IMG/VR virus record: IMGVR_UViG_2778261065_000019
DNA length: 11,826 bases
Strand: one strand, 5' to 3'
From: a virus
Taxonomy: Duplodnaviria; Heunggongvirae; Uroviricota; Caudoviricetes
Part shown: positions 1,375 through 1,497 of the stretch, in pieces
Numbering within the stretch: position 1 is the stretch's first letter
Layout of the letters: each line of letters begins with the position of its first letter
Notes under the pieces: generated by a model
What the model was told of the DNA's origin: nothing
The model's input: only the letters and a program-made list of their open reading frames with translations
Database searches by the model: none
Program-made: the position numbers and the translations under genes

Positions 1375-1379
1375 ATCAC

Positions 1380-1476
1380 CAGAATGTAAATTTACATTCT
1401 GCCAGCCACCAGCTACAGAACGCAAATTTGCACTTTGCTGAAATATTAACGGGTTAGGCCAGAGTGCAAATTTGCA
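1380..1476. repeat. Cluster of three AAATTT-centred perfect palindromes
   Basis: CAGAATGTAAATTTACATTCTG (1380-1401, 22 bp), GCAAATTTGC (1422-1431) and TGCAAATTTGCA (1465-1476), in the convergent gap between the 99-aa and 93-aa genes. No U-tracts follow, so they are not classical terminators. Confidence 0.5.
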
Positions 1477-1497
1477 TTATGCTTTAACTTCAGCAAG

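What the first reader, a model, noticed from the sequence alone, without database searches (positions are those of the whole stretch)
1375..1497. Three AAATTT-centred perfect palindromes in a convergent intergenic gap
The 22-bp, 10-bp and 12-bp perfect palindromes share a (T)G(C/T)AAATTT(G/A)C(A) pattern within 100 bp, lie 3' of both neighbouring genes and lack U-tracts. They look more like repeated binding sites for one dimeric protein (nucleoid protein, recombinase accessory site or packaging-related site near cos) than like transcription signals.
Basis: seen in the sequence. Interest (0 to 1): 0.4.

Follow-up and report, generated by a model that had tools for sequence, protein, structure and literature searches.

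The report
AAATTT-centred palindromes in a satellite island
The three palindromes are real and belong to a widespread, apparently undescribed class of AAATTT-centred DNA palindromes in phages and their satellites, conserved at the DNA level even inside genes, and they most likely act as protein-recognition sites on DNA rather than as transcription signals.

Summary
Perfect palindromes of 22, 10 and 12 bp (1380-1401, 1422-1431, 1465-1476) fill the convergent gap between two small genes of an E. coli P4/PICI-type satellite. They are not promoters or canonical terminators. They are not the cos sites (1844, 2583) or the origin (5840-6090).

Palindromes 2 and 3 are the palindromic halves of two tandem units of "palindrome + conserved box". 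Such arrays of 1-4 units follow the last late-operon gene in many related islands. The box matches the IHF core consensus, and the short hairpins differ in sequence between units but stay self-complementary.

The long version, CAGARTGYAAATTTRCAYTCTG, recurs exactly in unrelated phage and satellite contexts, in contigs of 31-67% GC. A GCAAATTTGC core with perfectly palindromic but different arms sits at one fixed position in 41 of 80 phage ParB-like genes, read in two reading frames. It also sits at a fixed position in KilA-N genes. That pattern points to selection on the DNA.

My best reading (0.4) is that these are recognition or loading sites for a dimeric DNA-binding protein, probably phage-encoded, perhaps helped by IHF. 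No cognate protein was found in the island, in lambda or in HK022. Palindromes 2 and 3 are decaying here. I found no prior description.

The parts
1380..1401 (.). Pal1: perfect 22-bp palindrome CAGAATGTAAATTTACATTCTG, 5 nt after the stop of the + strand ORF
   Evidence: It is identical in 10 of 11 loci found through the ORF+ protein. The same 22-mer also occurs with unrelated flanks in other arrays and in a 31% GC contig.
1406..1413 (-). Chi octamer (GCTGGTGG on the - strand) between pal1 and pal2, inside the conserved flank CCAGCCACCAGC
   Evidence: Read. Chi is frequent in related arrays but occurs in both orientations (9 versus 12 in 14 kb), so its significance is unclear.
1416..1437 (.). 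Pal2: CAGAACGCAAATTTGCACTTTG, a decayed copy with perfect core GCAAATTTGC at 1422-1431
   Evidence: It is the palindromic part of one 'palindrome + box' unit.
1434..1459 (+). Box A: TTTGCTGAAATATTAACGGGTTAGGC, the conserved linker of the unit. It holds TATTAACGGGTTA (1444-1456), one mismatch from the IHF core WATCAANNNNTTR
   Evidence: Across 36 non-redundant arrays there are 36 perfect IHF cores on this strand, 0 on the other strand, and 0.44 expected.
1460..1481 (.). Pal3: CAGAGTGCAAATTTGCATTATG, a decayed copy with perfect core TGCAAATTTGCA at 1465-1476
   Evidence: The perfect form CCAGAGTGCAAATTTGCACTCTGG is present in related islands (L005, L007, L136).
1477..1505 (+). Box B: TTATGCTTTAACTTCAGCAAGTTACCGCC, a second linker type that overlaps the stop codon and last codons of the - strand ORF
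   Evidence: This 3' flank travels with the ORF in about 800 E. coli genomes.
1498..1779 (-). ORF- (93 aa, phrog_1561, function unknown). It is the last gene of the satellite late operon, and the array starts at its stop codon
   Evidence: A 32% identical homologue in the distant satellite L033 is also followed by palindrome + box. The model is a three-helix protein with no significant fold match.
1075..1374 (+). ORF+ (99 aa, no family), an accessory gene that travels with pal1 and with the PerC gene (660-962, - strand)
   Evidence: The AlphaFold single-sequence model is unusable (pLDDT 44).

Best explanation
The three palindromes are DNA-level recognition elements. They belong to a widespread class of phage and satellite palindromes centred on AAATTT, with core GCAAATTTGC (GTAAATTTAC in pal1) and arms of 5-16 nt that differ between copies but stay self-complementary.

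In this island they form a mosaic array whose copy number varies between relatives. The array alternates palindromes with a conserved linker box that matches the IHF core consensus. It starts at the stop codon of the last late-operon gene and borders the accessory genes (ORF+, PerC).

I infer that a twofold-symmetric protein, most likely encoded by a phage rather than by the island, binds or loads at these sites. The candidates suggested by the context are ParB-like CTPase-fold proteins or KilA-N/antirepressor-type proteins. IHF bending at the linker may help assemble the complex.

What is shown: the anatomy, the array family, the sequence conservation across unrelated contexts, the fixed position inside genes in two reading frames, and the covariation of the arms. 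What is inferred: that a protein binds, which protein it is, and what the satellite gains. Pal2 and pal3 have decayed arms, so in this particular island only pal1 may still be fully functional.
For: 1. Real and non-random.
2. No promoter, terminator or Rfam match in the gap.
3. The exact 22-mer CAGARTGYAAATTTRCAYTCTG occurs in 33 viral and 53 metagenomic contigs of 31-67% GC, with unrelated flanks.
4. It sits at a homologous position in three ParB-like genes only 29-44% identical to each other.
5. 41 of 80 ParB-like genes carry [GA]CAAATTTG[CT] 309-351 nt into the match. It is read as A-N-L in 35 and as Q-I-C in 6. Arms are perfect for up to 16 nt per side and differ between genes.
6. Covariation on 34 distinct sites: 83.6% of cells paired against 57.4% in shuffles (0 of 500 shuffles as high), score 0.652 against 0.165, and 0.08-0.17 for slid controls. 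G.U pairs are not enriched among the mismatches, and the palindromes are perfect through the centre. Both points suggest DNA symmetry rather than an RNA hairpin.
7. The same element lies at one position in KilA-N genes from E. coli-type and 69% GC contigs. It also lies 16 nt after antirepressor genes in Klebsiella phages, ahead of a separate canonical terminator.
8. The palindrome + box next to the ORF- homologue is kept in a satellite whose ORF- is only 32% identical.
9. The linker box is a perfect IHF core on one strand only.
Against: - No ParB-like, KilA-N or ANT protein is encoded in the island.
- No member of this ParB-like family was found in cultured enterobacterial phages.
- Lambda, a known helper of islands of this type (PMC6739421), and HK022 have no such palindrome.
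- Copy number varies from 0 to 3 among close relatives, pal2 and pal3 are decayed, and one relative has a point mutation in the pal3 core.
- In most related arrays the same slots hold 13-16 nt hairpins with unrelated stems and asymmetric loops. These look structural rather than sequence-specific.
- An invariant centre with covarying outer arms is also what a hairpin or cruciform recognised at its tip would show.
- The contexts found by pattern scans are ascertained on the pattern itself, and many loci are related by descent.
Confidence: 0.4

Rival explanations
1. They are structural hairpins at transcript 3' ends. The palindromes and the short hairpins of the array would fold in RNA and act as weak terminators, insulators or 3'-end stabilisers between the converging late operon and the accessory genes, as is proposed for REP/BIME elements.
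For: The location is a convergent gap directly after two stop codons. On the + strand each hairpin is followed by TTTSC. The stems of the short hairpins differ between units but stay complementary (22 hairpin types in 65 units). Some palindromes in the analogous arrays of L137 and L187 look like canonical terminators. The gap folds better than shuffles, z about -4 on both strands.
Against: No terminator-like site is found by the scan. The short hairpins are weak, -0.4 to -9.7 kcal/mol. The T-rich tails lie on the strand antisense to the late operon. The long palindromes are perfect through their centre, which an RNA loop does not need. G.U pairs are not enriched. The same element sits inside coding regions at a fixed place in two reading frames. 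In Klebsiella phages it lies next to a separate canonical terminator.
Confidence: 0.2
2. They are recombination junctions. The repeated boxes (23-29 bp), the palindromes and the nearby Chi sites would be the short homologies and hot spots at which accessory cargo is swapped. On this view the array is a by-product or facilitator of cassette exchange, not a binding platform.
For: Homology between islands breaks at these elements. Units are gained and lost between boxes, and fragments of the ORF- 3' end are duplicated inside arrays. In other islands the non-coding backbone seen downstream of PerC in the window directly follows ORF-, so PerC/ORF+/pal1 looks like an insertion. Chi is frequent in the arrays. 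How satellite hotspots swap cargo is stated to be unresolved (PMC13586616).
Against: It does not explain the exact conservation of a 22-26 bp palindrome across phyla or its fixed position in ParB-like and KilA-N genes. The cargo in the window is not bracketed by boxes on both sides. Chi occurs in both orientations.
Confidence: 0.15
3. They are extruded DNA hairpins or cruciforms recognised by shape. Long perfect palindromes with an AT-rich centre would extrude under supercoiling or fold in single-stranded DNA, and would be recognised by a structure-specific enzyme such as a nuclease, primase or resolvase.
For: The centre is invariant and AT-rich, and the outer arms covary for up to 16 nt per side, longer than a typical helix-turn-helix dimer footprint. 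Symmetry is perfect through the centre. The ParB N-terminal fold is also annotated as a nuclease domain in this family.
Against: The arms in the window are short or decayed apart from pal1's 11 nt. The 5-bp stems of most array hairpins cannot extrude from duplex DNA. No structure-specific enzyme is identified in the island. The origins lie elsewhere.
Confidence: 0.1
4. They are decaying, functionless remnants of elements that were functional elsewhere and were carried into this island by recombination.
For: Pal2 and pal3 have lost most arm symmetry. A relative carries a mutation in the pal3 core, and another with a 90% identical ORF+ lacks pal1 altogether. Only 16 of 5426 E. coli genomes have most of the gap, although about 800 keep the ORF- flank.
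Against: Pal1 is perfect over 22 bp and identical in 10 of 11 ORF+ loci and in other contexts. Perfect forms of pal3 persist in several lineages.
Confidence: 0.1

Closest known systems
BIME-1 / RIP (RIB) elements of E. coli: REP palindromic units flanking an IHF site
   Same: Extragenic mosaic arrays in 3' flanks and convergent gaps, alternating short palindromes with a conserved linker that carries an IHF core consensus. Copy number varies between strains.
   Different: There is no resemblance to the GC-rich REP consensus as I recall it. The palindromes are AT-centred. The palindromes vary while the linker is conserved, which is the opposite of BIMEs. The arrays are confined to satellites and prophages rather than dispersed in the chromosome. 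IHF binding has not been shown.
parS centromere sites of ParB-family proteins (for example the chromosomal parS first found inside spo0J; P1 parS, which combines ParB boxes with an IHF site)
   Same: A palindromic DNA site conserved across phyla, embedded in coding sequence, including the gene of a ParB-family protein. P1 parS also pairs a palindromic core with an IHF bend.
   Different: The core GCAAATTTGC is unrelated to TGTTNCACGTGAAACA. Arms reach 13-16 nt and differ between genes. Within the stretches of contig I retrieved (up to about 14 kb per locus) there is one copy per locus, not a cluster. Many of the host proteins are fused to a DPPY DNA methyltransferase. Binding is untested. The island has sites but no ParB-like gene.
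Cis sites inside the gene of the protein that reads them (lambda ori iterons in gene O; pac sites inside small-terminase genes; HK022 Roi binding within roi)
   Same: A DNA element held at a fixed place in a variable linker of a DNA-binding protein's gene, which constrains the encoded peptide (A-N-L or Q-I-C).
   Different: The origins of the satellites examined lie elsewhere. HK022 itself lacks the palindrome. No packaging role is shown.
EcCICFT073-type PICI packaging module (Rpp with cos1 and cos2)
   Same: The window is an island of this kind. It has an Rpp homologue (E = 6.5e-31 to RppC) between two inverted lambda-type cosN sites (PMC6739421).
   Different: The palindromes lie outside cosN and cosB, on the cosQ side, 350-470 bp away. 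The same array follows ORF- in satellites that have no lambda-type cos.

Membership tests
Intrinsic (Rho-independent) terminator | G+C-rich stem of at least 5 bp with a 3-8 nt loop, followed directly by a U-rich tract | tested here: not met
   The scan of 600-2700 finds no terminator-like site in 1375-1497. The array hairpins have RNA folding energies of -0.4 to -9.7 kcal/mol and tails such as TTTCCG.
Sigma-70 promoter / operator pair | -35 and -10 hexamers at 16-18 bp spacing overlapping the palindrome | tested here: not met
   No promoter-like site in the gap, and both flanking genes point into it.
Lambda-type cos site | The palindromes form part of cosQ, cosN or cosB (terminase/Rpp binding repeats next to the 12-nt cohesive end) | tested here: not met
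   Exact cosN lies at 1844-1855 (+) and 2583-2594 (-). The cosB-like CCGGACAT repeats lie at about 1893-1990. Related satellites have the array but no lambda-type cosN.
P4-type replication origin | Clustered iterons and an AT-rich stretch next to the primase-helicase gene | tested here: not met
   GGTAGAYAG iterons lie at 5840-6090, just downstream of the D5_N primase gene. L033 and L035 have GTGAAC iterons after their primase genes. The palindromes are elsewhere in all three.
IHF binding site | Core consensus WATCAANNNNTTR, often with an A/T-rich tract upstream | tested here: inconclusive
   The window has TATTAACGGGTTA (1444-1456), one mismatch. Related arrays have 36 perfect cores on one strand, 0 on the other and 0.44 expected, but those copies are related by descent.
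IHF binding site | Actual IHF occupancy and DNA bending | not testable with these tools
   Needs EMSA, footprinting or ChIP.
BIME-1 / RIP | REP (PU) consensus palindromes with the GTAG-type 5' tetranucleotide | tested here: not met
   Direct reading of the units shows AT-centred, variable palindromes. The REP consensus is recalled from knowledge, not from a tool.
BIME-1 / RIP | Extragenic mosaic of palindromes alternating with a linker that carries an IHF core | tested here: met
parS / ParB system | Palindromic site conserved across taxa and located in or beside the ParB-family gene | tested here: met
   This holds for the palindrome class in other phages: 41 of 80 ParB-like genes, fixed offset, two reading frames.
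parS / ParB system | The cognate ParB-family protein is encoded by the same element | tested here: not met
   No ParB-like hit for any window ORF, and none in cultured enterobacterial phages.
parS / ParB system | Specific binding and CTP-dependent loading at the site | not testable with these tools
   A biochemical test is required.
CRISPR array | Identical repeats separated by unique non-palindromic spacers of fixed length, usually with cas genes | tested here: not met
   The window has no such repeats. The L137 array has a 61-62 bp period, but most of its spacers are perfect palindromes.
Integron attC | Paired inverse core (RYYYAAC) and core (GTTRRRY) sites closing an imperfect hairpin | tested here: not met
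   GTTAGGC is present in box A, but no partner RYYYAAC lies on the same strand of the unit (reading). No integron integrase is present.
Known RNA families (Rfam 15) | A covariance-model match in the gap | tested here: not met
   With E up to 1 the only hits are isrK, C4 and related families at 8834-9275 and chance miRNA hits.

The most novel reading that the evidence does not exclude
AAATTT-core palindromes would be the loading sites ('parS-like keys') of a large, uncharacterised family of phage ParB-like CTPase-fold proteins, many of them fused to DNA methyltransferases. Each protein would carry its own key inside its gene. Satellites and some phages would collect several different keys in arrays (palindrome + linker, often next to the terminase or late-operon end) to capture, titrate or misdirect the corresponding proteins of helper or competitor phages. 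That would be a cis-acting 'key ring' used in conflicts between mobile elements.
Probability: 0.15. Interest if true: 0.85.

Novelty: new variant of a known kind. Interest (0 to 1): 0.6.

Why it matters
If the palindromes are protein-loading sites, they give a directly testable handle on two open questions. The first is what the many orphan ParB-like proteins of phages do and where they load on DNA. The second is how satellites interact in cis with helper or competitor phages beyond cos/pac mimicry.

The array of palindrome + IHF-like box also marks the border of the accessory-gene hotspot of E. coli satellites. How cargo is swapped there is unresolved. Even under the dullest reading, the class is a clean example of a DNA element that dictates a peptide (A-N-L or Q-I-C) inside unrelated genes across phyla.

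Tried and rejected
- HK022 Roi lead (a protein that binds inside its own gene beside an IHF site, recalled from memory): HK022 has no copy of the palindrome with up to 4 mismatches.
- Origin of replication: the iterons lie next to the primase genes instead.
- Part of cos: rejected by position and by cos-less relatives.
- Promoter, terminator or Rfam RNA: none.
- CRISPR array (suggested by the 61-62 bp period in L137): rejected because most of the spacers are perfect palindromes.
- attC: no paired core sites.
- Chi as an oriented feature: both orientations occur.
- Resemblances recalled from memory to CytR, PurR, Fur, Zur, TyrR and Xer/dif sites: spacing or half-sites do not fit on inspection, and I did not pursue them.
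- Literature searches for the sequences returned only unrelated or biophysical papers.
- ORF+ structure: the single-sequence AlphaFold model is unusable (pLDDT 44).
- ORF- structure: a three-helix model (pLDDT 68) with no significant PDB or BFVD match. The sequence search gives only 'hypothetical protein'.
- A genome-contig scan with ORF- returned a single locus.
- ParB-like queries against cultured phages found no enterobacterial member.

Full report
**1. What the window is.** The window matches E. coli chromosomal islands integrated at tRNA-Pro between yejO and yejM.

It encodes these features:
- an integrase (10585-11826, - strand) and an AlpA regulator;
- a C4/isrK-type antisense RNA;
- a D5_N primase-helicase and an SSB;
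- a major capsid and a decoration protein;
- an Rpp homologue (2059-2493, - strand; E = 6.5e-31 to RppC) flanked by two inverted, exact lambda-type cosN sequences (1844-1855 +, 2583-2594 -).

Two cos sites and Rpp are the published hallmarks of EcCICFT073-type PICIs (PMC6739421). At the far end lie a PerC gene (660-962, - strand) and two small unknown genes that converge on the gap under study. These are ORF+ (1075-1374) and ORF- (1498-1779, phrog_1561).

Pal1 (1380-1401) is a perfect 22-bp palindrome. Pal2 and pal3 are 22-nt imperfect copies with perfect cores of 10 and 12 bp. These are the only exact GYAAATTTRC matches in the window. Three AAATTT-centred palindromes with arms of at least 5 nt compare with a mean of 0.18 in shuffles.

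**3. What they are not.** There is no promoter-like or terminator-like site in the gap and no Rfam family. They are not cos, because cosN and the cosB-like CCGGACAT repeats lie 350-600 bp away and relatives without lambda-type cos keep the same array. They are not the origin. GGTAGAYAG iterons lie just downstream of the primase gene (5840-6090), and two other satellite lineages that carry the palindrome have P4-type GTGAAC iterons after their primase genes.

**4. The local context is a mosaic array.**
- In about 800 of 5426 complete E. coli genomes only the part from pal3 to ORF- is conserved. Only 16 genomes keep most of the gap.
- ORF- is the last gene of the late operon in satellites with quite different packaging modules. 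Examples are TerS-TerL-ORF- and TerS-capsid-ORF-.
- From its stop codon onward lie 1-4 tandem units with a period of about 44-50 bp. On the window's + strand each unit is a short palindrome followed by a conserved linker. The linker is either TTTCCGAAAATATCAACGGGTTAGGC or the variant TTTGCTTTAAGTTCAGCGAGTTACCGCC.
- The first linker type is a perfect IHF core consensus: 36 matches on one strand, none on the other, and 0.44 expected in 36 non-redundant arrays. The window's copy has one mismatch.
- The palindromes differ between units but stay complementary. Examples are CCTCAAATTGAGG, CAGCCGTTGGCTG, CCCCCAATGGGGG, CCTGCATTGCAGG and AGCGCAATTTTGCGCT. There are 22 types in 65 unique units.

Pal2 and pal3 are the palindromes of two such units. 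Pal1 belongs to the ORF+/PerC accessory module and is present in 10 of 11 loci found through the ORF+ protein. The non-coding backbone that directly follows ORF- in other islands reappears downstream of PerC in the window, so ORF+/PerC/pal1 looks like cargo inserted into the array. A distant satellite (L033: primase 51%, capsid 64%, ORF- 32% identical) also has CAGAATGCAAATTTGCATTCTG plus a box beside its ORF- homologue.

**5. The long palindrome is a discrete, widely conserved sequence.** Exact matches to CAGARTGYAAATTTRCAYTCTG occur in 33 viral and 53 metagenomic contigs, in unrelated contexts and at GC contents of 31-67%. The contexts are:
- other satellite arrays;
- the coding region of a KilA-N/ANT gene placed after cro in a lambdoid prophage, in a loop that is longer than in P1 KilA;
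- 16 nt after the stop of antirepressor genes in Klebsiella phages, ahead of a separate canonical terminator;
- a cluster of four palindromes inside a gene upstream of the primase in AT-rich satellites;
- three ParB-like genes that are only 29-44% identical to each other;
- arrays of 'conserved repeat + different perfect palindrome' in phage-like contigs close to a large-terminase gene.

Those last arrays have the same architecture as the E. coli arrays but different linkers.

**6. Conservation is at the DNA level.**
- A profile of the ParB-like proteins retrieved 80 viral loci.
- 41 of them carry [GA]CAAATTTG[CT] at a fixed offset, 309-351 nt into the match. It is read as Ala-Asn-Leu in 35 and, in another frame, as Gln-Ile-Cys in 6.
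- The flanking arms are perfect palindromes of up to 13-16 nt per side and differ from gene to gene, even in contigs of 65-71% GC.
- Control positions in the same genes have mean arms of 0.4 nt.
- On 34 distinct sites, 83.6% of cells pair against 57.4% in shuffles (0 of 500 as high). The covariation score is 0.652 against 0.165, and 0.08-0.17 when partners are slid.
- G.U pairs are not enriched among the mismatches, and symmetry runs through the centre. Both points suggest a DNA element rather than an RNA hairpin.
- A second arm type (GTCTGCAAATTTGCAGAC) occurs in 20 contigs, as one copy per retrieved locus (at most about 14 kb of each contig). Fifteen copies are in ParB-like genes. One is in a KilA-N gene of a 69% GC contig, at the same position as in the E. 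coli-type gene.
- Many of the ParB-like proteins are fused to a DPPY DNA methyltransferase.

**7. Interpretation.** The class behaves like a cis-acting DNA site. Its centre is fixed and its arms are specific to each copy, and selection keeps it even where it dictates the peptide. The nearest analogies are parS inside spo0J, ori iterons inside lambda O and pac sites inside terS. I therefore rank 'recognition or loading site for a symmetric DNA-binding protein, with IHF as a possible architectural partner' first, at 0.4.

The steps from 'conserved DNA element' to 'bound by a ParB-like or KilA-type protein' and to any benefit for the satellite are inference. Several facts weigh against it. The island encodes no such protein. 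No enterobacterial phage with this ParB-like family was found. Lambda and HK022 lack the site. Pal2 and pal3 are decaying. Most array slots hold short hairpins of unrelated sequence.

The rivals cannot be excluded with sequence data alone. They are RNA 3'-end hairpins or insulators, recombination junctions of the cargo hotspot, shape-recognised cruciforms, and dead remnants.

**8. Novelty.** Full-text searches for the core and for both 12-mers returned only biophysical work on the CGCAAATTTGCG dodecamer and unrelated hits. Papers on satellite hotspots do not mention such units and leave the exchange mechanism open. A recent paper treats non-canonical roles of phage ParB-fold proteins in DNA modification as an open field. 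The architecture resembles BIME-1/RIP and parS in different respects, but it meets the defining features of neither.

Noticed in passing
window 1844-1855 (+) and 2583-2594 (-): Two exact lambda-type cosN sequences in inverted orientation, with about 45 nt of lambda-like flank each, bracket the rpp gene (2059-2493, - strand). Three CCGGACAT/ATGTCCGG repeats at about 1893-1990, with an AT-rich stretch between them, look like the island-specific cosB of cos1. Two cos sites are already published for EcCICFT073.
   Followed up: partly
window 5840-6090: A cluster of GGTAGAYAG / CTRTCTACC iterons around an AT-rich stretch lies immediately downstream of the D5_N primase-helicase gene. This is probably the island's replication origin. 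L033 and L035 have P4-type GTGAAC iterons in the same place.
   Followed up: partly
window 533-567: Four GTCAC pentamers at exact 10-bp spacing (TTGTCACGTCGTGTCACTGGTTGTCACTCTCCGTCACG). The same block, as GTGAC x4, recurs near the arrays of other islands (L066, L090, L104). Its function is unknown; arm-type recombinase sites are one possibility.
   Followed up: no
window 595-615 and 1034-1065: Two further palindromes. AACTACGAAAATTTCGTAGTT (10-nt arms) lies downstream of PerC and is a recurrent piece of the array backbone in other islands. CTTATTGTATGACAGT/ACTGTCCCACAATAAG lies in the divergent PerC/ORF+ promoter region and is a candidate operator.
   Followed up: no
window 4718-4749: The longest hairpin-type inverted repeat I listed in the window (15-nt arms, 2-nt spacer): AATCAGAACTGGATGTTCATCCAGTTCTGATT. 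It lies in the non-coding stretch upstream of the capsid operon and is a possible regulatory site of the late genes.
   Followed up: no
window 8834-9032 (-): C4 antisense RNA (75 bits), isrK (80 bits) and c4 a1/b1 target matches. This is a P1/P4-type RNA immunity module next to an Icd-like gene.
   Followed up: no
window 1406-1413 (-): A Chi octamer lies inside the conserved flank CCAGCCACCAGC between pal1 and pal2. Chi is about seven times denser in the related arrays than my recalled E. coli genome average (about one per 4.6 kb), but it occurs in both orientations and the loci are not independent.
   Followed up: partly
window 62-117: A terminator-like hairpin AAAAACCAACCGCAATAGGTTGGTTTTT, probably the yejO terminator, is followed by TGGTCGCACGAGAG. 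That sequence matches my recollection of the reverse complement of the tRNA-Pro 3' end and is the probable att core marking the island boundary.
   Followed up: no
L137 1020-1400; L187 50-400; L144 2860-2950: Phage-like metagenomic contigs carry arrays of a conserved 26-29 nt repeat alternating with different perfect palindromes of 22-32 bp. Examples are GACCTTGCGCAAATTTGCGCAAGGTC, AACTGCTTTAATTAAAGCAGTT and GAAACAAATACATCAATTGATGTATTTGTTTC. The arrays lie close to a large-terminase gene. The 61-62 bp period in L137 mimics a CRISPR array.
   Followed up: partly
L194, L210, L218, L225 (match starts at 1501 in L194, L210 and L218; 687 in L225): Phage ParB-like N-terminal domain + HTH proteins fused to a DPPY-motif DNA methyltransferase. 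Each carries its own 24-32 bp AAATTT-centred palindrome just upstream of the HTH-coding segment.
   Followed up: partly
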